Virus record (IMG/VR): IMGVR_UViG_3300047548_000777
Coordinates: 1 to 64,000 of that record
Source: a virus
Reading direction: 5' to 3' (one strand)
DNA: 64,000 nucleotides
Positions 28,143 to 63,642 of this stretch are shown piece after piece. A program made the position numbers and the translations under genes. Within the stretch, counting starts at the first letter, position 1, and each line of letters begins with the position of its first letter. Below the pieces are notes generated by a model. The model was not told the origin of the DNA. It saw only the letters and a list, made by a program, of their open reading frames with translations, and made no database searches.

Positions 28143-31100
28143 TTAACCTGATGTTTCGTTAGTTGCCGTGTTAACATTAGTTGATGGGAAGCTTCTACCA
28201 ACACCCCATACAATTCTCACTGCGCCGTTTGCACCGTCACCGCCTTGGGCGGTCGCGATTCGGGTGCTTCCGCCGGCGCCGTAAGCACCCCCATCGGGTT
28301 CAATATAATACACTTGAGCGTTACCCGTTGTAGTACGGCTGCCTGGGCCGCTGCCAGCTACCGTAGAACCATACAGAGAGGATCCAGTTCCTGTTGTGCC
28401 AGCAGCTGCACCAGTGTAGCTTCCGGCATTGCCACCACTTCCGAATGTAGTGCCGGTACTTATACGTACTCCATTAGCACCATTTCCGCCGCCGTCTCCT
28501 ACGTAACCACCGCCAGTGCCGGCACTCCCTGAAGGTTGACTAACAGAGCCGACTGTGTTGTATGGAGGGGGGTTGTTCGAATTTGGAGGCGTGTAGCTAG
28601 CAATAGTACCCGAGGTTGCGCCGCCAGCACCTTTACCTGCTACGGTGGTTAGGCTACCGAAATAACTATCTCCGGCTTTTGCACTCGAAAAACTTCCGGC
28701 GGTAAGTGGGTACGGCGCAGCACTTCCTGCCCCTACTACAACAGTATAGTTAGTTCCGTATGTTGGTACAATCTTCTTGTACCCAGTTCCTCCTCCGCCA
28801 CCTGAGTATGCCGCGTCGGCGATGCCGTTTGCTCCAATGGCTCCGGATCCTCCGCCGATGCATACGACGTGTATATTTGGAATGTACGGGTCCGGTAGAG
28901 TCCAGGTACGTGTTCCGGGAGTAGTAAATACAATACTTCCCCAGGTAGTAACAGACACAGTTCTGGATGCAGTTCCTATGTTTCCGGCTTGGTCTGCAGA
29001 GGTAGTGGCTGTTATAGTTCGTGATGCACCTTCCCCTATTGCGATCAACACTGCCTCTGTAACGAGACAACTCCAATTAGTGCCGATGATGCTAATCGGT
29101 ATTGCGCCATTAGGCCCTGATAGCGATACGGTGTATCCGCTTTCTATAGTTCCTGATATATATGTAGGTGTCGCAAGACTTGCGTAAGTTAATGCAGGAA
29201 CTGCATTTATAGTTACAATAGGTGCTGTCTTATCTACGGTGATCGCTGGAGCGAATGTTATATCTGATGAATACCCCTGTGCATTGGTTTGCCTAACTTG
29301 TACAACATTCACTGCATAGGATCCTTCTCCGAGAGTAAAGCTGGTTACGTTATATGCCATAGTTGTCCAACTACCACCGCCGTTGATACTATACTGCCAA
29401 GATCCAGTTGAACCCACAGTTATACCGGAAACATTTATTGTTCCATTGCTTGTATAGTAATCAGATGCTGAACTACCGGTATCGGATGCGAGTGCCAATG
29501 TTAACTTAGGTGGGACCGTAGTTACAGTTATAGTTCTAGAAGTACTTGAAGCATTTCCTGCGGTATCTGTTGCTGTAGCAGTAATAATTCTACCAGTTCC
29601 AGCACCCATTGCGGTGAAGTCAGCAGATGTAATTAGATAACTCCAAGTTGTTCCGCTGACTGTGGCAGTTCTTACTGTTCCGTTGAGAGATACAGATACT
29701 GTACTGCCGCTTGTTACCGTTCCGGTAATTGAAGTAACTCCTGCGTCTTGAGAACTTATGATAATATCATCTCCAGAAATGATATTCATAGTTATTGTAG
29801 GAGCAGTGGTATCTACAGTAATGGTCGAAGGATATGTGGTTACAGCAGATGGATAATTTTGTGCGTTAAATTGTCTAACGTTTACGCTGTCATAGGTTCC
29901 CTCGGAGAGGACGAAACTAGTTGTAGTAGGGGCCTGATTTGCACTCCAGCTGGAACCCCCGTTGGTACTGTATTGCCAATACCCGCCAGTAACTTGTCCA
30001 GAAACTGTCATAGTTCCATTACTCGTAATTCGATCCGATGCCGAACTACCTGTATCAGATGCTAAAGTTAAAGTTAACGCAGCCGGGACTGAAGTATACG
30101 TTACTGTCTGAGTTGCAGTTGCAGTGTTTCCTGCCTTGTCTGTAGCCGTGGCAGTTATAACTTTACTAGTCCCAATACCAAGCGCTGTTAAATCAGCTGA
30201 TACAATAGTGTAAGACCAAGAAGTGCCTGTTATTGAAGCTGTTTTTGTTGTAGTACCAAATGTCAACTTAACAGTATCAATGTAATCGTCATTCACTGTT
30301 CCGGTAATTGAAGTTACCCCTGCATCCTCAGAGCTTATTAGTATGTTATCACCGGAAACTATATTCATAGTTACAGTGGGTGATGTCTTATCTACTACAA
30401 CTGCTGATGCGTATGTAGTTATAGCAGACGGATAGTTTTGTGCGTTAAACTGTTGAACTTTTATGTTATTGGCTGAATAACTTCCTTCGTCGAGAGTAAA
30501 AAATGTTGTAGTAGACGCTTGATCAGCGCTCCAATTAGCTCCTGCATCAATGCTATATCTCCAAATTCCACCAGTAACCACACCAGATACGTTCATTCTT
30601 CCATTATTTGTAATTCTATCACTTGTAGAAATACCGGTATCGGATGCCAATGCAAGCGTTAATGTAGCCGGGACGGTAGTATTAGTCACATACCTAGTCA
30701 CAGTTCCTATGTTTCCTGCAGTATCTGCAGATGTAGTAGCAGTTATAGGTATGTTTACCCCGGTTCCTAAAACTGTACTACCTATATCAGTTGAAGTAAG
30801 AGCATAGCTCCACGTTGTTCCACTGACTGTAGCAGTTCTTGTTGTTGTTTTGAGGGTCAACGTTACAGTCCTTCCGCTTTCCACAGTTCCAGTTATTGTT
30901 GTTGTGCCGGTTATAATATCGTCTCCACTTATAACATCCATGGTCACGCTCGGTGCAGTGGTATCTACAGTAACTGCTGATGCATATTTTATCGGAGTTG
31001 ATGGGTAGTTTCCATCTGCACTAAACTGCCTTGCTTGAATTTGATTGGCTGCATATGTTCCTTCTCCAAGTACAAAACTACTTGTACCCGCCGTCGGGGT

Positions 31101-32633
31101 ACTTCCGTCAGTCCAGCTAGCCCCAGAGTCGGTACTATACTGCCATTTAGCAGCACTAGCAGATATACCTGTAACCGTCATAGTTCCATTACTTGTAATT
31201 TTATCAGTTGCAGAACTACCTGTATCTTGTGCAAGTGCAATCGAAGTTAACTGGCTAGGAGCTTGGACAACTGTTACAGTCCTAGTTGCAGTTCCGTCAG
31301 TATTTCCTGCTAAATCTGTTGCAGTAGCAATTATAGTTTTATTTGTTCCATATCCAAGGCTAGTTAAATCAGCTGCTACGACAGTGTAAGTCCATGTAGA
31401 TCCGGATATTGAAGCAGTTTTTATTGTAGCTCCAAATGTTAACTTAACAGTATTGACATTTGCATCTGTTACTGTTCCGGTAATTTGAGTAATTCCTGGG
31501 TCAACGTTATCTACTAAAATGTTATCGCTAGAAATTGTATTGATGGTTATTGTCGGAGAAGTTGTATCTATCTTGATTGTCGAAGTGTTTCCTACCGGAA
31601 TTGATGAATACCCAGATGAGTTTGTTTGCCTGACTTGAATTTTATTAGCTGTGTAAGTGCCTTCTGCCAGTTCAAACGTATTTGTGCTTAGGTCTTTACT
31701 TGTCCAGCTATTTCCGCCATCGATGCTGTACTGCCAAGATCCGCCGGCACCAACATTTATATCAAGAACAAGCACTGTTCCGTTCTTTGTAATTTTATCA
31801 GTAGTTGATGTTCCGGTGTCTTCTGCAAGAGCAAAGGATACGTTGCTTGGTGCAATGCCAACAGTTACTGTTTTAGAAGTAGTTGCGGTATTTCCTGCTC
31901 GATCCGTTCCTGTAGCAGTTATAACCTTATTAGAACCAGCGCCTAATGCTAATAGATCGTCTAATACAACAGTATATGTCCATGAGGTTCCATTAACTAT
32001 TGCATTTCTGGTTACCGTATTAAATTTTAGAGTGACTGCGCTGTCACTTGTTACTACACCAGTAATAGCTGTAACGCCAGGGTCTTCGTTGCTTATTAGA
32101 ACATTATCTACAGAAATAGTATTAATTGTTATCAGAGGCGCTGTACCGTCTACTATAATTTGTGTGGGATTAGTTGCCGGGATTGAAGTAAATCCTACCG
32201 CGTTAGTTTGTCTAACTTGAACTTGTCCAACTGCGTATGTCCCGTTATTTAAAATAAAACTATTCACGTTAGTTGGTAATGGTGTCCATGATGCACCCGA
32301 GTTCGTACTGTACTCCCAATATCCGTTAGTGACATTTATGCCGGATACCACTGTTGCACCATTGCTTGTGATATTATCAGTTGATGACAGTCCTGTATCT
32401 TGTTGCAATGTAAATGATAATTTATCTGGTATTGGGTTGAAAAACGGCAGTTGCTTCCACAAAATCACATCTGTATTAATTTCACTAAACGATGCAAGTT
32501 CTACTTTTTCATTGGTAGTGTTAAATCTTAACATTCCTTCGATTGCAGTAACAGGTCGTTCGTCAGTGATTCCTACCGCAACTTTTAAGTAATCGGTATC
32601 GACTATGGATATTCCGTTAATTTGAAGGGCCAT
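28143..32633 (-). CDS. Fibre/adhesin-like virion protein with about 12 tandem bacterial Ig-like domains and a Gly-rich C-terminal domain
   Basis: Six L..DTG.S..D..T.NG...W.YS...G.SW units alternating with six D.T.P..T.....I.GT...WSY...TAT..D.AGN units. Confidence 0.8.
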   Translation of the reverse strand: MALQINGISIVDTDYLKVAVGITDERPVTAIEGMLRFNTTNEKVELASFSEINTDVILWKQLPFFNPIPDKLSFTLQQDTGLSSTDNITSNGATVVSGINVTNGYWEYSTNSGASWTPLPTNVNSFILNNGTYAVGQVQVRQTNAVGFTSIPATNPTQIIVDGTAPLITINTISVDNVLISNEDPGVTAITGVVTSDSAVTLKFNTVTRNAIVNGTSWTYTVVLDDLLALGAGSNKVITATGTDRAGNTATTSKTVTVGIAPSNVSFALAEDTGTSTTDKITKNGTVLVLDINVGAGGSWQYSIDGGNSWTSKDLSTNTFELAEGTYTANKIQVRQTNSSGYSSIPVGNTSTIKIDTTSPTITINTISSDNILVDNVDPGITQITGTVTDANVNTVKLTFGATIKTASISGSTWTYTVVAADLTSLGYGTNKTIIATATDLAGNTDGTATRTVTVVQAPSQLTSIALAQDTGSSATDKITSNGTMTVTGISASAAKWQYSTDSGASWTDGSTPTAGTSSFVLGEGTYAANQIQARQFSADGNYPSTPIKYASAVTVDTTAPSVTMDVISGDDIITGTTTITGTVESGRTVTLTLKTTTRTATVSGTTWSYALTSTDIGSTVLGTGVNIPITATTSADTAGNIGTVTRYVTNTTVPATLTLALASDTGISTSDRITNNGRMNVSGVVTGGIWRYSIDAGANWSADQASTTTFFTLDEGSYSANNIKVQQFNAQNYPSAITTYASAVVVDKTSPTVTMNIVSGDNILISSEDAGVTSITGTVNDDYIDTVKLTFGTTTKTASITGTSWSYTIVSADLTALGIGTSKVITATATDKAGNTATATQTVTYTSVPAALTLTLASDTGSSASDRITSNGTMTVSGQVTGGYWQYSTNGGSSWSANQAPTTTSFVLSEGTYDSVNVRQFNAQNYPSAVTTYPSTITVDTTAPTITMNIISGDDIIISSQDAGVTSITGTVTSGSTVSVSLNGTVRTATVSGTTWSYLITSADFTAMGAGTGRIITATATDTAGNASSTSRTITVTTVPPKLTLALASDTGSSASDYYTSNGTINVSGITVGSTGSWQYSINGGGSWTTMAYNVTSFTLGEGSYAVNVVQVRQTNAQGYSSDITFAPAITVDKTAPIVTINAVPALTYASLATPTYISGTIESGYTVSLSGPNGAIPISIIGTNWSCLVTEAVLIAIGEGASRTITATTSADQAGNIGTASRTVSVTTWGSIVFTTPGTRTWTLPDPYIPNIHVVCIGGGSGAIGANGIADAAYSGGGGGTGYKKIVPTYGTNYTVVVGAGSAAPYPLTAGSFSSAKAGDSYFGSLTTVAGKGAGGATSGTIASYTPPNSNNPPPYNTVGSVSQPSGSAGTGGGYVGDGGGNGANGVRISTGTTFGSGGNAGSYTGAAAGTTGTGSSLYGSTVAGSGPGSRTTTGNAQVYYIEPDGGAYGAGGSTRIATAQGGDGANGAVRIVWGVGRSFPSTNVNTATNETSG

Positions 32634-33639: not shown

Positions 33640-35526
33640 TTAAACAACTTTAGTTGTTAAAGTATCGACATCGTTAGATAGTTCTTTAATTGCTTCGATT
33701 AAAAATCCAATCAAGGACACATAGTTAACGCTCTTTGATCCATTTATCTCATGAACCACTTCAGGTAATACCTTTTCAATTTCTTGCGCGATTACTCCGT
33801 AACCTAAGTGCCCGGTATTCCTCCAATTAAAAGAAACTCCTCGTAATCTTGATAATACATTAACAGAATCTTGAATTGTTTTAATATTTTCTTTTAATCG
33901 TTGATCAGATGCAAAGTTAATGTTGGTTGCGTATAGAGTTTGATTTCCAGAAGTATAATACATGTTAGTGGAATCAACTGCACCTTTATCCCAGGTACCA
34001 GTTGAGGCCGACGACATAGGTAAGTAATAGGTTGTATTTGCGCAAGTTCCTGCTAACGAAATTGCTGCAGTATATTTAACTCCGTTAATGCATAATCCAG
34101 TATCATCAACCCGTAGACGTTCGCATGTTCCAGTTCCCATCAGTACAGTATTGCATAAACCAGCAGCACCTGCCATTGGCCCTATAATAATATTATTTGA
34201 ACCAGTAGTTACTGAACAGCCCGAGAAACAACCAAAGAATGTGTTATTTGATCCGGTAGTATTATTATATCCAGAACAGTACCCTGCAAAGAAATTGTGA
34301 GCTCCGGACGTATTTTTATAACCAGCCAGTCTACCGTAAAAAATATTATGTTCACCAGTAGAATTAGAATAACCATTTTCCTGACCAATAAAGATATTAT
34401 TACTGCCTGCGCCGGTTGCATTGCTCCCACTTGATTGGCCAAAGAATATATTATTACTACCTATATTTTTAAGGCCAGCATTGCATCCGATAAAAATATT
34501 ATGTGTTCCAGTTTCGTTACATGCTCCTGCGGAATAGTTAATAAATGTGTTGTAACAGCCGGTATCATTTTTATATCCTGCTTGATAGCCTATAAAAATG
34601 TTACTCATTCCAGTAGAGTTTGTAAATCCAGATAACCCACCAATAAATACGTTGGCCGAACCAGTAACGTTACATATTCCCGCTGAACCACCAATAAAGG
34701 TATTATTATTACCTACAGAATTTCTAAAACCTGCACAGAATCCAAAAAATGTATTACTTGATCCAGCAGTGTTACAGTAGCCTGCACGGTTTCCAAAAAA
34801 GTTATTATTGGACCCAGTGCTGTTTGTTACACCAGCGCAATATCCAGCAAAGAAGTTACTGGTTCCAGTCCCTCCTTGTCCTGCTTGGCTACTGTATATA
34901 GTTCCACAAACTCCTGCAGATTTTGAAATTTCTCCGCTACTGCCGGTATACCCGCATGACCCTTGGCTTCCGGTGTATCCAACAGATCCAGTATACCCAG
35001 TGTCACCTCGACTACCAACATATCCGGTGTCACCTCGACTGCCGGTATAGCCAACAGATCCAGTATACCCAGTGTCACCTCGACTACCGGCGTATCCGGT
35101 AAATACAGACCCGTTGATGAACAAGCCAGTAGCATCAACTTTTAATCTCTCGGTAGCACCTGCTGCCAGAATAACCGTATTACACAACCCAGCAGATCCA
35201 GCAACACTTCCAATGATGACGTTGTTTGATCCAGTAGTTACCGCACATCCTGCATTGCAACCAAAGAATGTATTATTACTACCTGTAGAGTTAGATCGAC
35301 CGGCACAGAATCCAGCAAAGAAATTATGTTTACCGGTGCCACCGGTGCCTGCTTGGCTACTATATATAGTTCCGCAAACACCACTTAGCTTAAATTCCCC
35401 GTAACCTTCTAAACTAATGTCACCGGTACCTAAAATACTACATCCGCCGATAGTCTTTAAGTTTGTTATGTTTTCTAAGCCTCTACTATCATTGATAACA
35501 GTACAGCTATTAATTTTAATTGCCAT
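33640..35526 (-). CDS. Tail fibre with N.F.G..AG..N..G repeats, a collagen-like segment and a C-terminal intramolecular chaperone (peptidase S74-like)
   Basis: SDQRLKENI...GVIAQEIEKVLPEVV...VNYVSLIGFLIEAIKEL. Confidence 0.82.
   Translation of the reverse strand: MAIKINSCTVINDSRGLENITNLKTIGGCSILGTGDISLEGYGEFKLSGVCGTIYSSQAGTGGTGKHNFFAGFCAGRSNSTGSNNTFFGCNAGCAVTTGSNNVIIGSVAGSAGLCNTVILAAGATERLKVDATGLFINGSVFTGYAGSRGDTGYTGSVGYTGSRGDTGYVGSRGDTGYTGSVGYTGSQGSCGYTGSSGEISKSAGVCGTIYSSQAGQGGTGTSNFFAGYCAGVTNSTGSNNNFFGNRAGYCNTAGSSNTFFGFCAGFRNSVGNNNTFIGGSAGICNVTGSANVFIGGLSGFTNSTGMSNIFIGYQAGYKNDTGCYNTFINYSAGACNETGTHNIFIGCNAGLKNIGSNNIFFGQSSGSNATGAGSNNIFIGQENGYSNSTGEHNIFYGRLAGYKNTSGAHNFFAGYCSGYNNTTGSNNTFFGCFSGCSVTTGSNNIIIGPMAGAAGLCNTVLMGTGTCERLRVDDTGLCINGVKYTAAISLAGTCANTTYYLPMSSASTGTWDKGAVDSTNMYYTSGNQTLYATNINFASDQRLKENIKTIQDSVNVLSRLRGVSFNWRNTGHLGYGVIAQEIEKVLPEVVHEINGSKSVNYVSLIGFLIEAIKELSNDVDTLTTKVV
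34935..35100 (-). repeat. Collagen-like GYTGS(RGDT/V) coding repeat
   Basis: Repeated GTGTCACCTCGACT and AACAGATCCAGTATACCCA on the + strand; G-X-Y periodicity. Confidence 0.85.
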
Positions 35527-35564
35527 CTTCGTTCTCTCCTATAACTGTGAACTCGGCACAATAT

Positions 35565-38500
35565 TTATTGGTTACCCAATCGCTTGTTTAACTCTTCTAT
35601 CTGTTCTTGTTGGCGTTTTACAACGGCAATCAGTAATGGAATTAGCTGTGAATAGTTTACACTTTTAATTCCATAGTCATTGGTACTAACTACTTCAGGT
35701 AATACCGTTTCAATATCTTGTGCTATGACACCGTATGCAGTTTTTCCGGTTTCTTTCCATGAAAATTTAACTGGTTGAACTTTCTCTAAAATGCCAAAAG
35801 AATCAGAAATTTCTTCTATATTTTCTTTGAAACGAGCATCAGACAAACTGTTTATTTCAGTAGCGCTTAATGTTCCTGTACTAGGTACAAATGTAAGTTT
35901 AGTGGAACTTACATATCCGGACTGTGCACCAGTGTTCGACGAAAAGAACGCAGGGTAATATGTTCCTGCATCGGCTGTTTCGTCAGTAATTTTTACTAAT
36001 TCATCAGTATTAGTATCAACATAAGTAGAATTAATAGTAATAACATCATCTGTCCTAGCTAACGAAATGTTAGAGCCTGCTTTTAACGTTACACTGTCAG
36101 TTCCACTACCACTTCCAGTAGCAGTTAATATAATAGTCTTTTCACCCGTTACTGCCCCATCTCCTGCACTGATACTATACGTTGTATCGGTGTTAGTTGA
36201 GTTAATTATTAACTTTTGATCCGTTTCACTCCAAGAAACTACTGTAGAACCTGAACCAGTTACTCTAATGGAATCTGTACTACTATCGTTTCCTATTAAC
36301 TGTAAATCAACGATATTAGTTGTATCTGCAGGTGTTGACCCATCTAACGAATATGTAGTATTTGTAAACGAAGAACCAAATGTAATTTGATTTTCGCTAT
36401 CCCTGGTGATAGAAATATTCGAGCCTGCTTTTAGTATTACACTGTCAGCTGATGAATCACTACCAGATAATTTTAAACTTGCGCCTCCTGTTTCTGTTTC
36501 AGCAGAAATTGTGTAAGTTGTATTTACGTAGGTAGAACCAATCGTTATTTTCTGGGTGTCTTCATCCCATGATACTGTAGTAGAGCCGATTCCGGCTATC
36601 CTAATAGAATCTGTGCTACTATCTGTTCCCACCAATTCAAGGTCAACTATATTCTCTGACGGTGATGTGCCATCTAACGAATATGTAGTATTTGTAAACG
36701 AAGAACCAAATGTAATTTGATTTTCATCATCCCTGGTGATAGAAATATTTGATCCTGCGATTAACTTCACGCTATCGGTTGATAAATCGGCTCCGGATAA
36801 TTTTAAACTTGCACCATTAGTCTCTGTTTCAGCAGAAATTGTGTAAGTTGTGTTCGTTGCAGAAATTGTTAACTTCTGATTTGTCTCATCCCAAGAAACA
36901 GTGGCAGCTCCAGAACCGGTTATTCTAATAGAATCTGTGCTACTATCTGTTCCCACCAATTCAAGGTCAACTACATTAGCTGACGGTGATGTGCCATCTA
37001 ATGTGTAAGTTGTATTGACATATGATGAATCAATTGTTAACTGCTGGGTATCCTCATCCCAGGCGACAGTAGTGGATCCTGAACCTGTTACTCTAATATA
37101 ATCTTCAACAGCATCAGAATCAATTAATTGAATATCAACTATATTAGCTGATGGGGTTGTACCATCTAGCCAATAAGTTTTATTCACAACATCCCCTGTA
37201 GTTATTGTCTGTACGTGTCCGAATGTATCAAATGTAATTGCGTTAACAAATTTATTTGTTTGGGCAGTTACGTCTTCTACGCTACTGGTATCTTTATGTT
37301 CTATACGTATAGCATCGTTATTTGCATCAGCAGATACTCTTATTCCGGATCCTGCAACTATTTTTAGCTGATCATTAACACTATCAGTTACAACTTGGGT
37401 TCCATCTGCGGTATTCCAATTATATTCGGTATCAGTGTTGTCTATAGTTATGGTATTAAACGAACTAAGACCCGTAGCAGACATAGTGACCGAATTAGTG
37501 TCGTCATCATATGCTATTAATATGTTTGATCCGGCTACCAGATTTAATCTTTCAGTATTAACATCCAGTGTTAACTTTGAATCCGTGCCATCACCTATGG
37601 TAAGCGTATGGCTGTGCCCTACTAGGGCAAAATCTTCAGCATGATAGCTGTCAAGTAAATCTGCATTTAAATTAGCAACTACAGTTGTGCTAGCTACGCT
37701 CAAAGGAGCGGTTCCTACCTCAACTGTAGATACTAATTGTGTAGCTGTTACAGTTCCTGGGAATATGGTGTTTCCAGAAGCATCCAGTAAAGTAGCAGTT
37801 CTAACATCTTCTGTACCGTATTGCCTGACATAAATTGGTTCATTTTTATTATTGCCCGTTGCAATTTCTAAAAATCCTGCATCAATACCAGTTGCGCCGC
37901 CGCCAATGTACCAGTAATCAGACTCTCCAACTAGTCCTTTAACACCCCTATTCGTATTGCCATCAGCAAAAGTGATATTTCCAGTTCCTGTTACGGTATA
38001 TGACGGGGAAGAAAAGTTTTGATTACTTGTCCAACTATCTGTAGAATCAACCCATAATATAGTTTTATCTGTGGTTCCTTTTAACGTAATGCCGCCACCG
38101 TCTGCAGTTACATCAGTCGGTCCGGTGGTTGTAATATCAGTAACTGTACCTGTAGTTGGTGCTGTACCACCAGTATACGTATACGTAATGCTAGTAGAAC
38201 TATCAACAGAAAATACTACAGCAGTACCCCCAGTTCCTATTGTTCCTGCACCATTAGTTGCTGTGATAGCGGCACCTGGAATTAGTCCAGATGTATTAGT
38301 CATTCCAGTAATTGCAGCAGTCCAGGGCCCGGTGCCAGTAATTGAGCCTACTGTTCCTGTTATACTGACAACCGCAGATACAATAGACCCAAGTTCGATA
38401 TTTTTATCGTCAACAGTTAGTATATTAGTATTAACAGTAGTGGTTGTTCCGTTTACTATTAGATTACCACTTACCACTAGACTAGGACTGTGTATTGTAG

Positions 38501-56763: not shown

Positions 56764-56813
56764 TATACATTCCCTTATACAAGGGGCCGCATAGACCCCT
56801 ATAGTAAATTATA

Positions 56814-57461
56814 TTAAGCAGCAACAGTTAATGTAACCGCATTAGAAGTTACACTAGTAGCACCGGTTGCACTAACAATTACACGATATAGGTTACCGTC
56901 ATCCGATGGTTGTAAACCAAGTAATAGTAAGTTATCGTTAGTAGATGCAGTATTACTCCATGTTGCGCCAGAGTCAGTTGAAACTTGCCATAGATAAGTT
57001 AGTGTAGCACCTTCTGTTACGTTAGCAACGACCGCAAATACAGCTTCTCCATCAGCTGCGGTTTGATCAGTTGGCTGCGATGTAATCGTAATGAACGGGG
57101 AAACACTGGTTTCAACTTCATCCATTTCTGCCTTTCCATCTGTAATACTACCATCGAATGTCCAAGCATAGCTTACACCGCCGGCGACAACTCTATGTGC
57201 AGCAATCTTAGTAACTCTTCGAACAACGCCGTCATCAGTTTGTACACTGATAGACATCTCGTTAGCTGCTAACGAACCATCTGCTTTATCTACTAAGAAA
57301 CAATCACCTGTGTTAGCACCAACTGTTACTTTAAATTTTCTGGTACCTCGTTGACTTACAATTCTGCCGTCGCCTTCTGCATTGGCACCGATTTTTGCAC
57401 GAACTTTGATCTGATTACCTGCGCCAGATCCGAAATATCTCTTGTTTAGTGGACGTCCCAT
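56814..57461 (-). CDS. Putative head decoration protein with a C-terminal Ig-like domain
   Basis: ITSQPTDQT...FAVVA...LTYLWQ...DDGNLYRVIVS...SNAVTLTV; first structural gene downstream of the capsid gene; AAGGA SD. Confidence 0.65.
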   Translation of the reverse strand: MGRPLNKRYFGSGAGNQIKVRAKIGANAEGDGRIVSQRGTRKFKVTVGANTGDCFLVDKADGSLAANEMSISVQTDDGVVRRVTKIAAHRVVAGGVSYAWTFDGSITDGKAEMDEVETSVSPFITITSQPTDQTAADGEAVFAVVANVTEGATLTYLWQVSTDSGATWSNTASTNDNLLLLGLQPSDDGNLYRVIVSATGATSVTSNAVTLTVAA

Positions 57462-57480
57462 TTGTTTGATTCCTTATAAA

Positions 57481-57559
57481 TAGTATTATGGATGTGGGTT
57501 CTATCCACTACGGTGTGGGGCACCGTAAGCTATTATCTGTTAAATAGCATCCATTACTA
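57481..57559 (-). ncRNA. Candidate structured 5'-leader RNA, copy A (four-way junction)
   Basis: AUGGAUG/CAUCCAU closing stem around three hairpins; fills the space between CATAAATA (57568-57561) and the SD of 57461. Confidence 0.65.
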
Positions 57560-57565
57560 TTATTT

Positions 57566-58240
57566 ATGTATATTAAGATGAATACTCCTTACACTTACCT
57601 AATCGGATGGTCAGATTTAAATCGTTGGTATTACGGCGTTCGATATTCTAAGAATTGCCATCCAACTGACTTGTGGAATCCGTATAAGACATCAAGTAAG
57701 ATAGTATTAAAATTTATTAAAGATCACGGAGAGCCCGATATTCGAATTGTTCGTCGTACATTTAACAGCGTTAACGAAGCAAGAGTATGGGAGCATAGAG
57801 TTCTATTAAAATTAAACGTCATTAATAAAGAGAAATGGTTGAACGGACATAATACTATTGCGTTTGATATTACATTAGTTCCAAAAGGAGATCAACACTG
57901 GACTAGAAAGAATCCCGAAAAGTGGGCTAAAATTCAAAAATTTAGAAAATACCAAAAAGGGGAAATGCATTGGACTAATCAAAAAACTGCATCGGCGCAA
58001 CAGCATCGAACGCGAATGAATAGCGAAATGAATCCTAATAATTTTTTACACAACAAGATTTTAAGAAGTGAAAAGTTAAAAATCGATAATCCTGTTAATT
58101 TACCAGGAGTTAAAAATAAAATTAAAGAAACATTAACAGGATATAAGCATCCTCGTAAAATATGCGAGCACTGCGGTAAAGATGTAGCTGATTCGATTTA
58201 TACAAGATGGCACGGAACTAAATGTAAAAATTTAGGTTGA
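57566..58240 (+). mobile_element. Free-standing homing endonuclease, GIY-YIG-like
   Basis: YTYLI-(8)-WYYGVR, YKTSS, A.VWEHRVL, WLN; C-terminal CEHC...RWHG.KC; inverted relative to the structural operon. Confidence 0.75.
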
Positions 58241-58306
58241 CGTTTTAGGTCTACGCTGCGGGGTTACAGCATAAGTCTCGTGTTAAACGAGCACTCAGTT
58301 ATAGAC
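58239..58306 (-). ncRNA. Candidate structured leader RNA, copy B (orphaned)
   Basis: Same three hairpins as copy A with compensatory changes; follows late promoter GATAAATA (58319-58312). Confidence 0.65.
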
Positions 58307-58323
58307 ATATGTATTTATCATAT

Positions 58324-58352
58324 AAAGAAAAAGGCTTCCGAAGAAGCCTTTT
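58324..58352 (-). terminator. UUCG-loop intrinsic terminator after the orphan capsid tail
   Basis: AAAAGGCTTC-TTCG-GAAGCCTTTTTCTTT. Confidence 0.9.
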
Positions 58353-58374
58353 ATTGGGGGTGTTACTCAGTTAA

Positions 58375-58437
58375 TTAACTAAACTTGACTGCGCCAGAAG
58401 CGATAGCAACCTTACCTAAGTAATCTGCGGCATTTCC
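58375..58437 (-). pseudogene. Orphan duplicate of the last 20 codons plus stop of the major capsid gene
   Basis: Translates GNAADYLGKVAIASGAVKFS*, identical to the MCP end; 53/63 nt identical to 59757-59819. Confidence 0.95.
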
Positions 58438-58447
58438 TACGGAAACT

Positions 58448-58750
58448 TTATAGTGGTAATTGAGAACTAAGTTCTAGTATTCGATCTTTCATTTCAATTA
58501 GTTCGTTGTTTGTTTTTTCAATATCTGGATCATTTTTATCAGGATAATTGATATTTAAAATACTATCGATTACAGAAATAAATTCCTCAACGTTATTTAA
58601 AATCATTGCAGATCTAGAAGGAGATCTTAATCTTATCAAAATATTTAAAGATTTTTCAAGTATATCATATGTATGTTTTACAGAATCAATATCTACTCCG
58701 CGCATGTTAGACCATAATAAATTCTTATCAGTTATTTCAAATATTCTCAC
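58448..58750 (-). CDS. Hypothetical cargo protein (100 aa)
   Basis: AGGAGA SD before GTG; begins MRIFEITD; AT-rich. Confidence 0.65.
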   Translation of the reverse strand: MRIFEITDKNLLWSNMRGVDIDSVKHTYDILEKSLNILIRLRSPSRSAMILNNVEEFISVIDSILNINYPDKNDPDIEKTNNELIEMKDRILELSSQLPL

Positions 58751-58886
58751 CAAGAGATCTCCTATGCTCTAATTCTTTGATTAGATCCGTTAAATCAGAT
58801 TCTGCTTGATGACGCAAATCATTAATTTTTTTGTTTATTTCTCTAATTTTGTTAATTGTATCTTCAGATAAATTTTTATTTTCCAT
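58737..58886 (-). CDS. Small coiled-coil cargo protein (49 aa)
   Basis: My translation: MENKNLSEDTINKIREINKKINDLRHQAESDLTDLIKELEHRRSLGENI*; ATG 2 nt after the HNH stop. Not in the ORF track. Confidence 0.55.
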   Translation of the reverse strand: MENKNLSEDTINKIREINKKINDLRHQAESDLTDLIKELEHRRSLGENI

Positions 58887-58888
58887 AA

Positions 58889-59656
58889 TTATTCCGTTTT
58901 AAGTTTACAATTATCCCCGTGCCATCTAGCATATCCATTAACTGCAACTAACTGATTGCAATGAGGGCACTGCTTCTTTTCTCGTTTCATATTTAAAGCC
59001 CGCTGTGTTTCTGCTCGACGCACAACTACTTCCGGATCTTGTTTTCGCCCAGACAATGATTCACTTATCTTTTTCTTTGTATCTTCTGATACATTAATCC
59101 CAAATCTATTATTATTTTCTCCTTGTTTAGAAGCAGATAACTTTCCTCTCCATTCTTTAGAAAAAGGCTTGCGTTTTTTTCCTAATTTACTGGCAGATAT
59201 CTTCGCTCTTGCCTCTAGTTGTTTAGCACCGTTATTTTCACCGGTAACTGCTGCTCGTTGTCTTTCTGTTCCTTCTGCACTACGGTAAAATTTGTCTCCG
59301 TACATAGGATTTTTCTCGCCAGAGTATCGTTCACTTTGTAACATAGAGTATTCTTCTTTCAAATTTTCATATACTCTAGCTGTAACTTTTGTTTTATATC
59401 GTTGTTGGCGGGAATTTTCTGCTTGCATCATTCTAAATGCGTTAATCATTTTCCAGTGTGCTTCACCGGTAGGGTATATTTTTGTTAATAACCAATGGCA
59501 TATAAAATGTTCGCGGGCAGTTAAATCAGTTAAATTTTCAATGGAATCATCGCCGCCTAGACTTTTTGGCAGTATGTGATGTTTTTCTGTATAACCATCT
59601 CTAAGTGCTTTTCCTACAGTTGTAATAGCTACATACCATTTTTTGTATTTGTTCAT
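58889..59656 (-). mobile_element. Free-standing HNH homing endonuclease with NUMOD3-like repeats
   Basis: EKHHILPKSLGG.D...NL..LTAREHFICHWLL; GEKNPMYG, SEDTKKKISESLSG; C-terminal CPHC...RWHGDNC. Confidence 0.88.
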
Positions 59657-59661
59657 AACTT

Positions 59662-59712
59662 TATTTATATTCGATAACTCAACATAATACATTAAAAATA
59701 AAATTAAGTCAA
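59662..59712 (-). promoter_or_regulatory. Sigma70-type plus late promoter for the HNH gene
   Basis: TTGACT (59712-59707)-17-TATTAT (59689-59684); TATAAATA at 59669-59662. Confidence 0.7.
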
Positions 59713-59738
59713 GAAAAAACCCGCCGAAGCGGGTTTTT
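59711..59738 (-). terminator. UUCG-loop intrinsic terminator after the capsid gene
   Basis: AAAAACCCGC-TTCG-GCGGGTTTTTTCTT. Confidence 0.92.
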
Positions 59739-59756
59739 GATATATTAAATGCTCAA

Positions 59757-60932
59757 TTAAGAGAACTTAACAGCACCAGAAGCAATAGCAACCTTACCTA
59801 AGTAATCTGCAGCGTTACCTAGAGAGCTAGCAGTATTACTCAATTCCACGTAGCCATATCTCGTCATAAAGCTTACGACTGGTTCGAATGTAGACGGATC
59901 TAGAACAACACCAGAGCTCATTAGAGGAACATATGGGCAATAGAATGCAGCAGCGTCTGCTTCGCTGGAACCCTTATATCCAACTAGGATATCAGCGTTA
60001 TCAGCAGCATATGTGTTAACATAGATCTTCATTGCGTTGTTTAGTGTACCAACGAACTTGGTGTTTGTTGGAGCTTCAAAAGTACCTTCTGTAGTACGAG
60101 CAAATGCACTAGTAGTAGCAGATTGTAGAATTGTTAAAGCTAGTGGGCTAACAACTGCCCAGTTACCTGCGCCACGACGTGTACGCTGAGCGATTAAGTT
60201 AGCAACACGGTTGATCTGAACAGCTAAAGCAGCGTGCTCGTCACCAACGAAAGTAGCAGTACCGCTAACAGCAGACTGGTCATAAGTCTGTAGAGCAGCA
60301 CCTGCTAGGTTGTTTAAAGAACCTAGAACTTCTTGATCGATTTCAGCAGTAATTTCTTGTGCTAGAGCAGCCATGATTTCTGCTTCGATATCGATACCTT
60401 GTTGAGCTTGTGCATCTTGTGCAGCTTCGAAAGTCCAACGTGCGCTTAGTTTGCGTGTCTTGGCTTCGACGGTCTGCTTTAAGATTTGAATGCTCATTCT
60501 GTTACCAGCAGTACCTTCTAACGCAGCAGTATTAGCAGCCTTAGCAGCATTTGCATTTTGGTTACCAGAATAAGCTTCAGCAATCTTGAATGGGCTGAAT
60601 GCTTCTTCACCAGCTACAACGCCAGCGCCAGTGCTTGTATCACTGTAGCGAACACGTAGAGTATGAATTTGGCCAACTGGACCAGTTAGAGGCTGAACAC
60701 CAACTAGTTCGTTAGCAATAACGGTTGGCATAACGCGACGAATAACCGGTAGAATAACACGGTTTAGTGTTGCAACGTTACCAGCAGAAGTAGCGCCAGC
60801 TGTAGCACTTTCTGCAAGATACTTGCGTGTATTTTCTAATGTTACAGCCATTGTGGATTTACGGGTGCCGCGTAGGCCTTCTAATAGGGCTTCCTTGGTC
60901 TCGTTCCAACGGCCAGTGAGTAGTTCTGACAT
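59757..60932 (-). CDS. Major capsid protein (gp23-like)
   Basis: VGVQPLTGPVGQI, VEAKTRKL.A.WT.EAAQD, EITAEIDQE, FYCPYVPL, TFEPVVSFMTRYG; strong codon bias. Confidence 0.97.
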   Translation of the reverse strand: MSELLTGRWNETKEALLEGLRGTRKSTMAVTLENTRKYLAESATAGATSAGNVATLNRVILPVIRRVMPTVIANELVGVQPLTGPVGQIHTLRVRYSDTSTGAGVVAGEEAFSPFKIAEAYSGNQNANAAKAANTAALEGTAGNRMSIQILKQTVEAKTRKLSARWTFEAAQDAQAQQGIDIEAEIMAALAQEITAEIDQEVLGSLNNLAGAALQTYDQSAVSGTATFVGDEHAALAVQINRVANLIAQRTRRGAGNWAVVSPLALTILQSATTSAFARTTEGTFEAPTNTKFVGTLNNAMKIYVNTYAADNADILVGYKGSSEADAAAFYCPYVPLMSSGVVLDPSTFEPVVSFMTRYGYVELSNTASSLGNAADYLGKVAIASGAVKFS

Positions 60933-60947
60933 GTATATCTCCTTGAA

Positions 60948-62039
60948 TTATAATCCAGCTAAACGACGAATTGCAATAATGTTTGTGTCGTTTTCGCTAC
61001 TACTTATGCTGTTAGGAATTTTATTTCCTGTTACTTCTTTTGCCTCTACTAGCGCCTTACGTGTGTTAGGAGCAGCTTTACCGGCAACTACCGCTGGCAA
61101 GTATTTTTCAAAACTTGCACGTAGCTTAGTAGTTTGAACGCTTTCTAGTAATTCATTCATAATTACCTTTTGCTCACGAGCCAAAGGTGCTAATAATTCA
61201 TTCATTACTTCTTGACGTTCTTTGCTCTCCATTAGAGCCTTAATTTTTTGTTCTTTGCTTTCTAAGAGTCGTTTCGTTGCATTGGCTTCTTTACGTGCTT
61301 CGGCAACTGCGGATTCTTTCAGGTTTATAACCTTGAGCAATTTACTAATTTCTGATTTTTCGCTTAGATAACTTGTTTGGTACTCGCTTGCAAAAGCTTC
61401 AAACAATTTACGTCCGAAGTCGTTACGACGTGCTGCCTCGATATCTTCACGTAGTTGACTCATCTCTTTAGCTAGAGTTTGTTCAACTGCGCCTTCGACT
61501 ACGACTGCTGCTCTCTTGATAAACTGATCTTTTACTTTAGCAAATGCTTCGCGACCCTCACGAATTAAACGAACCTTTGTTTCTGCAAGTTCTTGTTTAT
61601 CTGTGTGGAACTCTGCAATTTCCTGTGCTAGAGCTTCTACTACAAACTGTTCAAGTTTAAAAAACTTGTCAGTCATTTGCTTTTGATCTTCATGCAATTC
61701 TTTTACTTCGGATGCTAGTTGCTTGACAACAAAATGCTTCATTGTTTCTGCGACGCGCTTGCCTTCCATTACAACCTTAGCTTTTGCTTCGGCTAATTGC
61801 ATACGATCTTCAACAAATTGAGCAATTTCTTCACGTAGTTGGTCACCCAACATACGATCTACAGCCTCGACCATGATACTTTTATCATGTTCGTAGCGCT
61901 GTGCAAATTCCTCACGTAGCTGTTGAGTTACTTGGGTACGATTCTCAGTGATTCGCTTTTCCCAAGCAGACTCAATTTCTGCTTTAACTTGTTCAGAAAT
62001 CACATTGTTTTCAAACAGGCTTTTTAATGCTTCCAACAT
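60948..62039 (-). CDS. Prohead core scaffold protein (gp22-like)
   Basis: Long E/K coiled coil between protease and MCP; GRKLFEAF. Confidence 0.85.
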   Translation of the reverse strand: MLEALKSLFENNVISEQVKAEIESAWEKRITENRTQVTQQLREEFAQRYEHDKSIMVEAVDRMLGDQLREEIAQFVEDRMQLAEAKAKVVMEGKRVAETMKHFVVKQLASEVKELHEDQKQMTDKFFKLEQFVVEALAQEIAEFHTDKQELAETKVRLIREGREAFAKVKDQFIKRAAVVVEGAVEQTLAKEMSQLREDIEAARRNDFGRKLFEAFASEYQTSYLSEKSEISKLLKVINLKESAVAEARKEANATKRLLESKEQKIKALMESKERQEVMNELLAPLAREQKVIMNELLESVQTTKLRASFEKYLPAVVAGKAAPNTRKALVEAKEVTGNKIPNSISSSENDTNIIAIRRLAGL

Positions 62040-62694: not shown

Positions 62695-63642
62695 TTACTT
62701 TGCTCTTTTCGGAGCACCATTGATAGGGCTACCTGCGCTCTTGTCGCCGTTGTCTCCACTACCTTTTCTTTCAGCACCGTGTCCTGGTTCTTTTTTCTTG
62801 AATGCTGTTTTACCAGCTTTTCCGCCAGGAACATTAATGTTGCCGAAATTTTCTTCTTTAGCAGTTGGCTTTAGTAGACCGCTTTGTACGCCCTTACCGC
62901 CAGCTTCGCCGCCCTTCACGATATTGGCAGTTGTACCGCCCATGTCGTTCTTCATGTTATCAATAACGCTCTTTACATTATCACCGTTGTCGCCAGAAGA
63001 TTTCTTTTCAGCACCGTGGCCGCCGCTGACTTTTTCAATGTACTCACGCATAAATGCTGTGGCATCGAAACTGTCTTTGATTTCTTCTTCCTCTTCCTCT
63101 TCTTCTTCGCCTTCTTCGTCGCCCATGTCCATTTCGTCATCAGCTTCGTCGTCTGCTTCGCCCTCTTCGCCACCGAAGTCCATGCCTTCAGGTTCTTCTT
63201 CGCCTTCTTCGTCGCCCATCATTTGCTCAAATTCGGCACGTAGGTCATCTAATGCGTCTTCTAGATCCATAACACGATCTTCTAGATCGCCTTCTCCTTC
63301 AGCACCATCCATGTCCATATCGGAATCCATGTCAGAATCCATATCGGAATCTGCATCGATGTCGCCCATGAAGTCATCTGTAGCATCTCCGCCGACTTCA
63401 CCGTCGTCTTCGCTACCGAATGGATCGGCGCCCATTTCGTCATCTTCGTCTTCAGTTTCACGGAAGGTAACTTCCATACCCTCGTCAACTTCTTCATCGT
63501 CATCTAGCTCTTCGGCTAAGATGGATTCATATATTTCGCGTGACTTTTCAACTACTAGTTGGTGAAATACTTCACGCGCTTTATCTTGTTCTTCACTAAT
63601 TAAATACTCGAGCATCTGCTCGAACTTGCTTCGGTCAGTCAT
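62695..63642 (-). CDS. Highly acidic prohead core protein
   Basis: 315 aa with D/E tracts and a basic Gly-rich tail; directly upstream of the protease, where T4 has gp67/gp68. Confidence 0.7.
   Translation of the reverse strand: MTDRSKFEQMLEYLISEEQDKAREVFHQLVVEKSREIYESILAEELDDDEEVDEGMEVTFRETEDEDDEMGADPFGSEDDGEVGGDATDDFMGDIDADSDMDSDMDSDMDMDGAEGEGDLEDRVMDLEDALDDLRAEFEQMMGDEEGEEEPEGMDFGGEEGEADDEADDEMDMGDEEGEEEEEEEEEIKDSFDATAFMREYIEKVSGGHGAEKKSSGDNGDNVKSVIDNMKNDMGGTTANIVKGGEAGGKGVQSGLLKPTAKEENFGNINVPGGKAGKTAFKKKEPGHGAERKGSGDNGDKSAGSPINGAPKRAK

What the first reader, a model, noticed from the sequence alone, without database searches (positions are those of the whole stretch)
58324..59820. HNH cassette bracketed by two synonymously recoded copies of the capsid gene 3' end, each with its own UUCG terminator
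Seen: 58375-58437 encodes the same 20 residues plus stop as the capsid end (59757-59819). There are 10 nt differences in 9 codons, all synonymous (including TCT vs AGT), around an identical 26-nt core GCAGATTACTTAGGTAAGGTTGCTAT. Both copies are followed by a UUCG terminator. Between them lie promoters, an HNH gene and two small ORFs. The orphan has no in-frame start (a TAG lies 12 codons upstream). Inference: the element inserts inside an essential gene and supplies a replacement end, an intron-free way of being harmless. Purely silent divergence means the orphan was recently coding, for example the displaced recipient allele refreshed at each homing event. Recombination across the core would excise the cassette and leave an intact gene plus terminator. 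One unexplained point: the orphan has the less capsid-like codons (GGA, AAT, GCC, AGT).
Basis: partly seen in the sequence, partly recalled or inferred. Interest (0 to 1): 0.85.

Follow-up and report, generated by a model that had tools for sequence, protein, structure and literature searches.

The report
Homing endonuclease between duplicated capsid-gene ends
A selfish DNA-cutting-enzyme cassette sits at the end of a giant phage's major capsid gene, between two differently spelled copies of the gene's last 20 codons and terminator; the layout is known from yeast and fungal mitochondria, and here empty-site relatives from other samples show how the insertion sits.

Summary
On the minus strand, 58375-58437 and 59757-59819 encode the same 20 residues plus stop. 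They differ at 10 bases in 9 codons, all silent, around an identical 26-nt core. Each copy is followed by a UUCG hairpin terminator.

Between the copies lie an intact HNH-NUMOD3 homing endonuclease gene and two small ORFs, with promoter-like motifs ahead of the HNH gene.

- Homologues of this HNH sit directly behind the capsid gene in 16 of 17 other viral contigs.
- None of those contigs duplicates capsid codons; four distinct arrangements have a second terminator behind the gene.
- Contigs from two other studies carry the empty site. Their capsid gene is near-identical to the window's except for the last ~180 nt (19 differences).
- A second, GIY-YIG-like endonuclease gene next door (57566-58240) is likewise bracketed by two diverged copies of an RNA leader (freshwater-2 motif).

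My reading is ordinary homing by double-strand-break repair, which brought a donor gene end and stranded an older one. The parallels are WHO elements at yeast FBA1 and fungal mitochondrial mORFs. The orphan looks like an untranslated scar or homology arm.

"Refreshed at every homing event" is not supported, and cleavage is untested. Earlier notes of this scan report the same layout in other phages. I found no published phage example. Interest is moderate.

The parts
59757..60932 (-). Major capsid gene (391 aa, Gp23 family) of a jumbo phage; 66-72% identical to the capsids of PA5oct, Phosso and GAP32-type phages
   Evidence: Pfam PF07068 at E 1.4e-99; tblastn against phage records
59757..59819 (-). 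Attached copy of the last 20 codons plus stop ('end1'). At 8 of the 9 differing codons it uses the codon that is commoner in the capsid gene
59756..59939 (.). Divergent tract. It has 19 differences from the empty-site allele in 184 nt, none in the next 163 nt of the same contig, and at most 2 in contigs covering the rest of the gene. This is a co-conversion-like tract beside the insert
   Evidence: records 9, 15, 18, 19
59711..59738 (-). Terminator 1: CCCGC-UUCG-GCGGG hairpin plus U-run, ending capsid transcription
   Evidence: fold; repeat D5
59662..59712 (-). Promoter-like motifs ahead of the HNH gene. TTGACT-17-TATTAT lies at 59712-59684. TATAAATA lies at 59669-59662, 5 nt before the likely start codon at 59656
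   Evidence: consensus matches only, function not shown
58889..59692 (-). HNH-NUMOD3 free-standing homing endonuclease gene. The likely true start is M13 (59656), giving 255 aa like the homologues
58737..58886 (-). 49-aa ORF, starting 2 nt after the HNH stop; function unknown
58448..58753 (-). 101-aa ORF of unknown function. It is a real gene: two homologue clusters of 62-65% identity end at the same residue. Its stop lies 10 nt before the orphan
58375..58437 (-). Orphan copy of the capsid's last 20 codons plus stop. It has no in-frame start; a TAG lies 12 residues upstream
58356..58374 (-). Spacer between the orphan's stop and terminator 2. It is homologous to the empty-site allele's spacer but about one third different from it, and unlike the spacer behind end1
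   Evidence: table 5c
58329..58352 (-). Terminator 2: GGCUUC-UUCG-GAAGCC hairpin plus U-run. It also has a T-run on the + strand, so it probably ends the convergent GIY-like gene as well. The identical terminator follows the capsid gene in three distant contigs without an endonuclease gene there (L100-L102)
58236..58355 (.). 120-nt island of recipient-type intergenic DNA between the two endonuclease cassettes; 119 of 120 identical to the empty-site allele
   Evidence: records 9 and 15
58223..58292 (-). Displaced, truncated copy B of the freshwater-2 RNA leader (model positions 1-70). In the empty-site allele it runs on through ACAAGGAG to the p215 start codon
57566..58240 (+). Second putative homing endonuclease, GIY-YIG-like (YLIGW..YYGVR), convergent with the capsid gene. 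It shares a C-terminal CxxC..H..C motif with the HNH protein. It is absent from the empty-site allele, where 8 nt replace 765
57459..57547 (-). Complete copy A of the freshwater-2 RNA leader, abutting the p215 start codon; the stems differ from copy B by paired changes
56814..57461 (-). p215, a head-protein-like gene (phrog_613). It is 7% diverged from the empty-site allele (46-47 differences in 671 nt), a tract beside the second endonuclease gene

Best explanation
The 1.4-kb insert is a free-standing HNH homing-endonuclease cassette (HNH gene, two small ORFs, promoter-like motifs upstream). Its home is the 3' flank of the major capsid gene in a group of freshwater jumbo phages.

Proposed mechanism: in a mixed infection the enzyme cuts an unoccupied allele near the capsid 3' end or terminator. 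The break is repaired from the occupied genome. This copies the donor's last ~180 nt of the capsid gene, its terminator and the cassette.

In this lineage the right-hand join was not at the allelic position. An older capsid end and its spacer stayed downstream as an untranslated orphan in front of the resident terminator.

Both copies evolved as parts of working capsid genes in different lineages. That explains why they differ only silently and why the terminator stems differ by paired changes.

The orphan has no function for the phage. At most it serves as downstream homology, together with terminator 2, for later transfers. It is also a substrate for precise loss of the cassette.

The neighbouring GIY-YIG-like gene entered the leader of the next gene in the same way. 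It brought a donor copy of the leader RNA and stranded the resident copy.

Shown: the anatomy, the family's link to this locus, the empty-site alleles and the local divergence tracts.
Inferred: the cleavage site, the immunity of the occupied allele, and the order and origin of the pieces.
For: 1. Duplicate ends with silent-only differences: chance about 1e-6.

2. The HNH protein looks intact: NUMOD3 above Pfam's cutoff, phrog_655 at E 8.6e-44, HH..N..H aligned to a known HNH domain. It has 2796 homologues of similar length.

3. Locus specificity with mobility. In 16 of 17 viral contigs the homologue lies 60-125 nt behind the capsid stop on the same strand. HNH identity does not follow capsid identity: L084 has 60% HNH and 85% capsid; L083 has 65% and 75%; L095 has 41% and 79%. 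The 80 nearest capsid loci lack it.

4. Empty sites. Contigs from two other studies join capsid stop, 17 nt, terminator 2 and leader, 8 nt, then p215, with 120 nt aligned on the shorter side of each joint.

5. Local divergence in a single contig of similar depth: 19 differences in 184 nt next to the insert, then 0 in 163 nt. Other contigs show at most 2 differences up to position 61000. This is the pattern reported for WHO elements, with 85% versus 99% identity around the cut (PMC7282813).

6. Four distinct related arrangements (five contigs: L083, L084/L085, L086, L087) have a second terminator behind the HNH gene; in L084/L085 it is an exact copy. Duplication of the flank is therefore a recurrent by-product, of variable length.

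7. The second endonuclease gene shows the mirror layout with an RNA leader. Its displaced copy is the recipient's own, lying in the island that is 119 of 120 identical to the empty-site allele.

8. Terminator 2 follows the capsid gene in three distant contigs that have no endonuclease gene there, so the orphan plus terminator 2 is a native capsid 3' unit.
Against: - No cleavage data exist, and the target site is unknown.
- The coding duplication is unique to this contig among about 100 related loci, so general rules cannot be drawn from it.
- The tail GKVAIASGAVKF occurs nowhere else in the viral or metagenome collections or among the protein hits. Two separate lineages with the same rare tail and 16% silent divergence is an uncommon combination: 1 of 92 comparable pairs.
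- The identical 26-nt core is longer than random placement of the differences predicts (P 0.013). It is unexplained; gene conversion or a crossover point are possibilities.
- The orphan uses rarer codons at 8 of 9 differing codons, which is odd for a recent capsid allele.
- The letters of the empty-site allele's last 63 nt were not shown. I therefore could not establish whether the orphan matches it.
Confidence: 0.72

Rival explanations
1. WHO-type obligatory design. The upstream copy is a selected, cleavage-resistant recoding of the target. The orphan is a required recombination arm. At every homing event the recipient's own end becomes the new orphan.
For: The layout matches the WHO model point by point. 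The silent-only differences are numerous. The second endonuclease gene shows that a displaced copy can be the recipient's own. Earlier notes of this scan list similar phage cassettes (unchecked).
Against: None of 16 related HNH loci carries a coding duplicate. The spacer next to the orphan differs from the empty-site allele at about 6 of 18 positions, while the adjacent 120 nt differ at 1. A few changes would be enough for resistance, not 10. The 26-nt identical core would defeat both resistance and recombination avoidance if it lay inside the target.
Confidence: 0.2
2. A local tandem duplication of the capsid end and terminator arose first, by slippage or unequal exchange. The endonuclease cassette later landed between the copies by chance.
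For: The direct repeat is 1382 nt apart. Duplicated terminators occur in relatives.
Against: An in-genome duplicate would start identical, and the untranslated copy would then decay at all codon positions. Instead there are 10 silent changes and no replacement (P about 1e-6). The terminator stems are fully different with paired changes. The spacers are unrelated. The divergence tract runs 120 nt beyond the repeat into the capsid gene.
Confidence: 0.04
3. The orphan is expressed and functional. For example, a +1 frameshift at CUU-AGU-U near the end of the 101-aa ORF could fuse it to the capsid's last 20 residues. Selection on that product would explain why the residues are kept.
For: The orphan lies in the +1 frame, 10 nt after the ORF's stop. 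A CUU-A slip would enter that frame after the TAG. No replacement changes are present.
Against: Both homologues of the 101-aa protein end at the same residue without any extension. The motif is short and common. The codon after the proposed slip site is not rare. No other locus has such a fusion.
Confidence: 0.03
4. Assembly artefact joining two strains that differ silently in the capsid end.
For: The sample holds many related capsid alleles; summed depth reaches about 500 against 38 for this contig. Two related records, L003 and L048, are fold-back chimeras at this very region.
Against: A second assembler (k=31, longer than the 26-nt core) gives one contig across 56800-60074 with no difference. 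The orphan's upstream junction shares no sequence with the capsid gene. Pieces of the occupied form occur in another study (X5: 59742-59925 and HNH-internal pieces).
Confidence: 0.01

Closest known systems
WHO elements at the yeast aldolase gene FBA1 (Coughlan et al. 2020, PMC7282813)
   Same: An endonuclease gene lies between a full-length target gene with a replaced 3' end and a displaced 3' fragment. Alleles are near-identical upstream and strongly diverged downstream of a point in the gene. The fragment is proposed to act as the recombination arm. No splicing is involved.
   Different: WHO proteins are intein-like LAGLIDADG-zinc-finger proteins in a eukaryotic nucleus. Here the enzyme is an HNH-NUMOD3 protein in a phage. 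The duplicate includes a transcription terminator. Only 63 nt of coding sequence are repeated. There are no clusters of successive fragments. Cleavage is untested. Sister elements of the same HNH family lack the coding duplicate.
Mobile endonuclease ORFs (mORFs) forming gene hybrids in fungal mitochondria: Allomyces atp6; Glomus atp6, atp9, cox2, nad3 (Beaudet et al. 2013, PMC3630166)
   Same: An inserted foreign C-terminus lies in frame, followed by an endonuclease ORF and the native C-terminus downstream. The two C-termini are far more alike as protein (94-100%) than as DNA (64-81%).
   Different: Those are organelle genes with GIY-YIG or LAGLIDADG ORFs, often in phase with the host gene. 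There the native copy matched close relatives. Here that match could not be shown for the orphan.
Free-standing seg and mob homing endonucleases of T4-like phages (Edgell, Gibb and Belfort 2010, PMC2988022)
   Same: These are HNH or GIY-YIG genes between essential genes. The cut is at a distance in the neighbouring gene, with co-conversion of flanking markers and endonuclease-specific promoters. T4 segD lies between the capsid gene 23 and gene 24 in the opposite orientation, as the GIY-like gene does here.
   Different: The review does not mention duplication of the neighbouring gene's end (the word stem 'duplicat' occurs 0 times). Known disruptive cases split the gene (nrdA in Aeh1, gene 39/60) rather than replace its end.
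HEG islands at boundaries of genetic exchange in phages (Barth, Dunham and Seed 2023, PMC10448857)
   Same: Endonuclease genes cluster beside essential genes, including capsid genes, and mark the edges of exchanged segments.
   Different: The families studied differ (T5orf172, IPA-HNH). In the passages I searched, no duplicated target-gene end is described.

Membership tests
Free-standing HNH homing endonuclease (HNH nuclease plus NUMOD3-type DNA-binding region) | HNH (beta-beta-alpha-metal) catalytic motif | tested here: met
   HHILPKSLGG..ENL..EH aligns to the HNH domain of a group II intron protein (6me0). The Pfam HNH models score 17-19 bits, below their cutoffs. phrog_655 'homing endonuclease' matches at E 8.6e-44.
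Free-standing HNH homing endonuclease (HNH nuclease plus NUMOD3-type DNA-binding region) | Sequence-reading DNA-binding module | tested here: met
   NUMOD3 (PF07460) scores 35.3 bits against a cutoff of 20.4. A C-terminal CxxC..H..C motif is shared with the neighbouring GIY-like protein.
Free-standing HNH homing endonuclease (HNH nuclease plus NUMOD3-type DNA-binding region) | Presence or absence at one site among otherwise near-identical genomes | tested here: met
   Empty-site contigs occur in runs X3 and X4 (two studies). The occupied form occurs in X1 and X5.
Free-standing HNH homing endonuclease (HNH nuclease plus NUMOD3-type DNA-binding region) | Same insertion locus in divergent genomes, with a gene history that differs from the host gene's | tested here: met
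   16 of 17 loci lie behind the capsid gene. Percent identities of HNH and capsid do not track each other. No tree was built.
Free-standing HNH homing endonuclease (HNH nuclease plus NUMOD3-type DNA-binding region) | Site-specific cleavage of the unoccupied allele and biased inheritance | not testable with these tools
   This needs enzyme assays or crosses. The host is unknown.
End-replacing homing elements (WHO / mORF type) | Endonuclease gene flanked by two copies of the target gene's end, the upstream one in frame and complete | tested here: met
End-replacing homing elements (WHO / mORF type) | Sharp switch from near-identity to high divergence within the target gene between occupied and empty alleles | tested here: met
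   19 differences in 184 nt, then 0 in 163 nt in one contig, and at most 2 further on.
End-replacing homing elements (WHO / mORF type) | The displaced copy is the recipient's former end | tested here: inconclusive
   Terminator 2 and the next 85 nt are recipient-type (119 of 120). The spacer beside the orphan differs at about 6 of 18 positions. The empty allele's last 63 nt were not displayed. For the second cassette, the displaced leader copy is recipient-type.
End-replacing homing elements (WHO / mORF type) | The layout recurs among elements of the same family | tested here: not met
   None of 16 related HNH loci duplicates capsid codons. Four distinct arrangements (five contigs) have a second terminator only.
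End-replacing homing elements (WHO / mORF type) | The upstream copy resists the enzyme and the empty allele is sensitive | not testable with these tools
   Requires a cleavage assay.
Group I/II intron or intein carrying the endonuclease | Intron RNA structure, or an in-frame intein, around the endonuclease gene | tested here: not met
   No intron family matches in 57000-61200 at E up to 1. The capsid ORF ends with its own stop and terminator before the HNH gene.
freshwater-2 RNA motif (Rfam RF02980) | Score at or above the curated threshold of 49.9 bits | tested here: inconclusive
   Window copy A scores 45.2 bits and copy B 29.2 bits, both below threshold. Nine related loci score 54-72 bits at the same place, each ending at the start codon of the p215 homologue.

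The most novel reading that the evidence does not exclude
In phages, free-standing homing endonuclease cassettes may routinely carry a replacement module for the neighbouring functional element: a recoded gene end with terminator, or a leader RNA. The module would serve as both immunity allele and homology arm. WHO-type end-replacing homing would then be a general, so far undescribed phage mechanism. This locus would show two such cassettes back to back around a 120-nt remnant of the original intergenic region.
Probability: 0.22. Interest if true: 0.7.

Novelty: new variant of a known kind. Interest (0 to 1): 0.52.

Why it matters
It gives a natural phage example of an endonuclease cassette occupying the end of an essential, highly expressed gene without an intron, an intein or a split gene.

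The empty and occupied alleles come from independent samples. They differ in a sharp divergence tract, so the size of the exchanged segment can be read off (about 180 nt of capsid gene).

It also shows why the capsid 3' end and the capsid-to-next-gene spacer are a mosaic hot spot in these jumbo phages. This affects capsid-based phylogenies and marker-gene surveys.

Finally, it places the orphan Rfam motif freshwater-2 as the leader of a head-protein gene of freshwater jumbo phages. If the duplicated modules turn out to be required for homing, phage endonuclease biology gains a mechanism so far known only from yeasts and fungal mitochondria.

Tried and rejected
- Megablast of 57400-61000 against phage records gave no match.
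- Exact 26-nt core: no hit in viral contigs or metagenome contigs. Degenerate patterns for the same tail residues: no hit. The own record is excluded from these scans.
- The empty-site spacer as a pattern in viral contigs gave no hit. I could therefore not obtain the DNA of the empty-site allele's last 63 nt. The differences table was cut before those rows, and read laying and the look-up of sequencing runs are capped at one call each.
The contexts of the closest HNH homologues (84% and 78%) and of the two homologues of the 101-aa ORF could not be read.
- A search with the capsid's C-terminal 61 residues found no identical fragment; the best was 95%, with a different tail.
- No contig in X1 shows the 1382-nt deletion junction. 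X5 has no cover over the orphan. Contigs drop rare variants, so neither says anything.
- Sliding-window identity of capsid genes against the relatives in hand was uninformative: all are 85% identical or less and mosaic throughout.
- T4-type late promoter: TATAAATA lies upstream of both endonuclease genes but is not enriched in the window (8 found, 8.4 expected).
- The frameshift fusion of the 101-aa ORF to the orphan was considered. The homologues end at the same residue, so I rate it unlikely.
- Pfam and the PDB sequence search gave nothing for the GIY-like protein. Its assignment rests on a weak PHROG hit, the N-terminal motif and the shared C-terminal motif.
Full report
**Where the window lies.** The window is the first 64 kb of a 77.6-kb IMG/VR virus record, estimated 21% complete. 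Its 391-aa major capsid protein belongs to the Gp23 family. It is 66-72% identical to capsids of jumbo phages such as Phosso, PA5oct and the GAP32 group. The capsid gene lies on the minus strand at 59757-60932. It follows a prohead protease-like gene and a scaffold-like gene.

**The observation.**
- The minus strand at 58375-58437 encodes GNAADYLGKVAIASGAVKFS plus stop, identical to the capsid's last 20 residues.
- The two stretches differ at 10 bases in 9 codons, all silent.
- They share a 26-nt core that occurs only twice in the record.
- Upstream of the glycine codon the similarity ends. The orphan has no start codon.
- Both copies are followed by a UUCG-loop hairpin with a U-run. The stems are entirely different but the flanks are alike.
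- Ten random substitutions would all be silent about once in a million trials. Both copies therefore diverged while coding.

**What lies between the copies.**
- An HNH-NUMOD3 protein: NUMOD3 is above the Pfam cutoff, phrog_655 matches at E 8.6e-44, and the HH..N..H motif aligns to a known HNH domain. Its likely start is the methionine at 59656.
- A 49-aa ORF that starts 2 nt after the HNH stop.
- A 101-aa ORF with two full-length homologue clusters. Its stop lies 10 nt before the orphan.
- A sigma-70-like promoter match directly after terminator 1.
- No intron RNA.

**The HNH family and its locus.** The protein has 2796 database homologues. Seventeen are on viral contigs. In 16 of these the gene sits 60-125 nt behind the capsid stop, on the same strand, after a UUCG-type terminator.

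HNH identity does not track capsid identity:

| Locus | HNH identity | Capsid identity |
|---|---|---|
| L084 | 60% | 85% |
| L083 | 65% | 75% |
| L095 | 41% | 79% |

The 80 nearest capsid loci lack the gene. At least three other endonuclease families occur in the same gap in other relatives. The capsid 3' flank is thus a homing hot spot.

None of these loci repeats capsid codons. Four distinct arrangements (five contigs: L083, L084/L085, L086, L087) have a second terminator behind the endonuclease gene; in L084/L085 it is an exact copy. Flank duplication therefore recurs with variable length. The window shows the longest case.

**Empty sites and divergence tracts.** I laid Logan contigs of four runs on 56800-61000.
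- X1, probably the source sample, has one 10,188-nt contig that matches 56800-60074 without a difference. This supports the assembly with a second assembler.
- X5, from another study, has pieces of the occupied form.
- X3 and X4, from two further studies, each have one contig in which both endonuclease cassettes are missing.

The empty-site contig reads, in order:
- p215 (46-47 differences in 671 nt);
- 8 nt;
- 58236-58355 (1 difference in 120);
- 17 nt;
- the capsid gene from its stop upward.

In the X4 contig the capsid part has 19 differences. X3 shows the same 19 within 59756-59939, so 59940-60102 has none. Other contigs of like depth have 0-2 differences up to position 61000.

The occupied and empty phages are thus near-identical in the capsid gene except for its last ~180 nt, next to the insert. 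WHO elements show the same signature at yeast FBA1. In T4-type homing it is called a co-conversion tract.

**Origin of the orphan.** Terminator 2 is also the capsid terminator of three distant contigs that have no endonuclease gene there. It is recipient-type in the window. The orphan plus terminator 2 therefore has the form of a native capsid 3' unit.

The 19-nt spacer between the orphan's stop and terminator 2 is homologous to the empty allele's 18-nt spacer, but differs at about 6 positions. The adjacent 120 nt differ at only one. So the orphan is not simply the end of an X3/X4-type recipient.

Two histories fit. The orphan came in with the cassette, and the right-hand exchange resolved in the conserved terminator. 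Or one of the two lineages has since exchanged this piece. I could not see the letters of the empty allele's last 63 nt, so this stays open.

**Open points.**
- The tail after GNAADYLG varies among relatives, and this exact tail is found nowhere else.
- Among relatives, only 1 of 92 tail pairs with 9-11 base differences encode identical residues. The combination is uncommon but natural. Selection for working hybrid capsids after transfer would enrich for it.
- The identical core is longer than random placement of the differences predicts (P 0.013). The orphan uses the rarer capsid codon at 8 of 9 differing codons. I have no tested explanation for either.

**The second cassette.** A GIY-YIG-like gene (57566-58240, plus strand) converges on terminator 2. 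It shares a C-terminal zinc-finger-like motif with the HNH protein.

It is bracketed by two copies of the Rfam motif freshwater-2. Copy A is complete (45 bits) and abuts the p215 start codon. Copy B covers model positions 1-70 (29 bits) and is cut at the cassette border.

In the empty allele, copy B runs on through ACAAGGAG to the same start codon. In nine relatives the motif scores 54-72 bits and ends exactly at the start codon of the p215 homologue.

This cassette therefore brought a donor leader plus a 7%-diverged 5' part of p215, and stranded the resident leader. Here the displaced copy is demonstrably the recipient's. The two cassettes leave a 120-nt island of the original intergenic region between them.

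**Comparison with what is known.** Free-standing HNH and GIY-YIG endonuclease genes beside essential phage genes, with co-conversion, are textbook T4 biology. T4 segD even lies behind gene 23 in the opposite orientation. Endonuclease genes at exchange boundaries near capsid genes have been surveyed.

A replaced gene end with a displaced fragment is described for WHO elements. It is also described for fungal mitochondrial mORFs, where the two ends are likewise far more alike as protein than as DNA.

My literature searches found no phage example. Earlier notes of this scan report the same layout in several other phages; I did not check them.

**Verdict.** The cassette is a mobile homing element. 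The claims that the orphan is renewed at each event and that the design is obligatory are not supported. I class it as a new variant of a known kind, of moderate interest.

Noticed in passing
window 57459-57547 and 58223-58292 (minus strand); L031, L039, L045, L046, L053, L055, L064, L073, L100: The Rfam motif freshwater-2 (RF02980, function unknown) is the 5' leader of the p215-type head-protein gene directly behind the capsid terminator in these jumbo phages. It ends at that gene's start codon. The window holds two diverged copies around the GIY-like gene.
   Followed up: partly
L003:833-3138 and L048:1880-4164: Two IMG/VR records carry two different capsid alleles joined tail to tail. One is cut at residue 381, inside the near-palindrome TACCTAGGTA of the D-Y-L-G codons. 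These are probably fold-back assembly chimeras.
   Followed up: no
L046:3972-4021 and L046:4256-4465: A glutamine riboswitch aptamer (54.7 bits) and a manA RNA (55.5 bits) lie between the capsid gene and the freshwater-2 leader in one relative.
   Followed up: no
Capsid-downstream gaps of L004-L082 (alignment A4): Three other endonuclease families (phrog_3339, phrog_559, phrog_12131) occupy the same gap in other relatives. A NifU-like gene and a SAM-decarboxylase-like gene also occur there. The gap is a general insertion hot spot.
   Followed up: partly
window 58199-58228 and 58904-58933: The two endonuclease genes share a C-terminal motif, C-x-H-C..Y-x-R-W-H-G..C-K (50% identity over 28 residues). 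It appears as a 30-nt inverted repeat because the genes converge.
   Followed up: partly
window 58451-58480 (minus strand): CUU-AGU-U near the end of the 101-aa ORF would allow a +1 slip into the orphan's frame after its upstream TAG. The homologues of the ORF end at the same residue, so this is probably a coincidence.
   Followed up: partly
window 57475-57482 (+) and 59662-59669 (-): TATAAATA lies upstream of both endonuclease genes, and behind the endonuclease gene in L083, L084 and L086. It is not enriched in the window as a whole.
   Followed up: partly
window 28900-32400 and 34300-37200: Long arrays of diverged repeats with periods of about 580 nt and about 330 nt lie in large minus-strand genes. 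They are probably repeated domains of structural or fibre proteins.
   Followed up: no
window 62695-63642 (minus strand): A 315-aa, extremely acidic (D/E-rich, repetitive) protein is encoded just upstream of the prohead protease-like gene.
   Followed up: no
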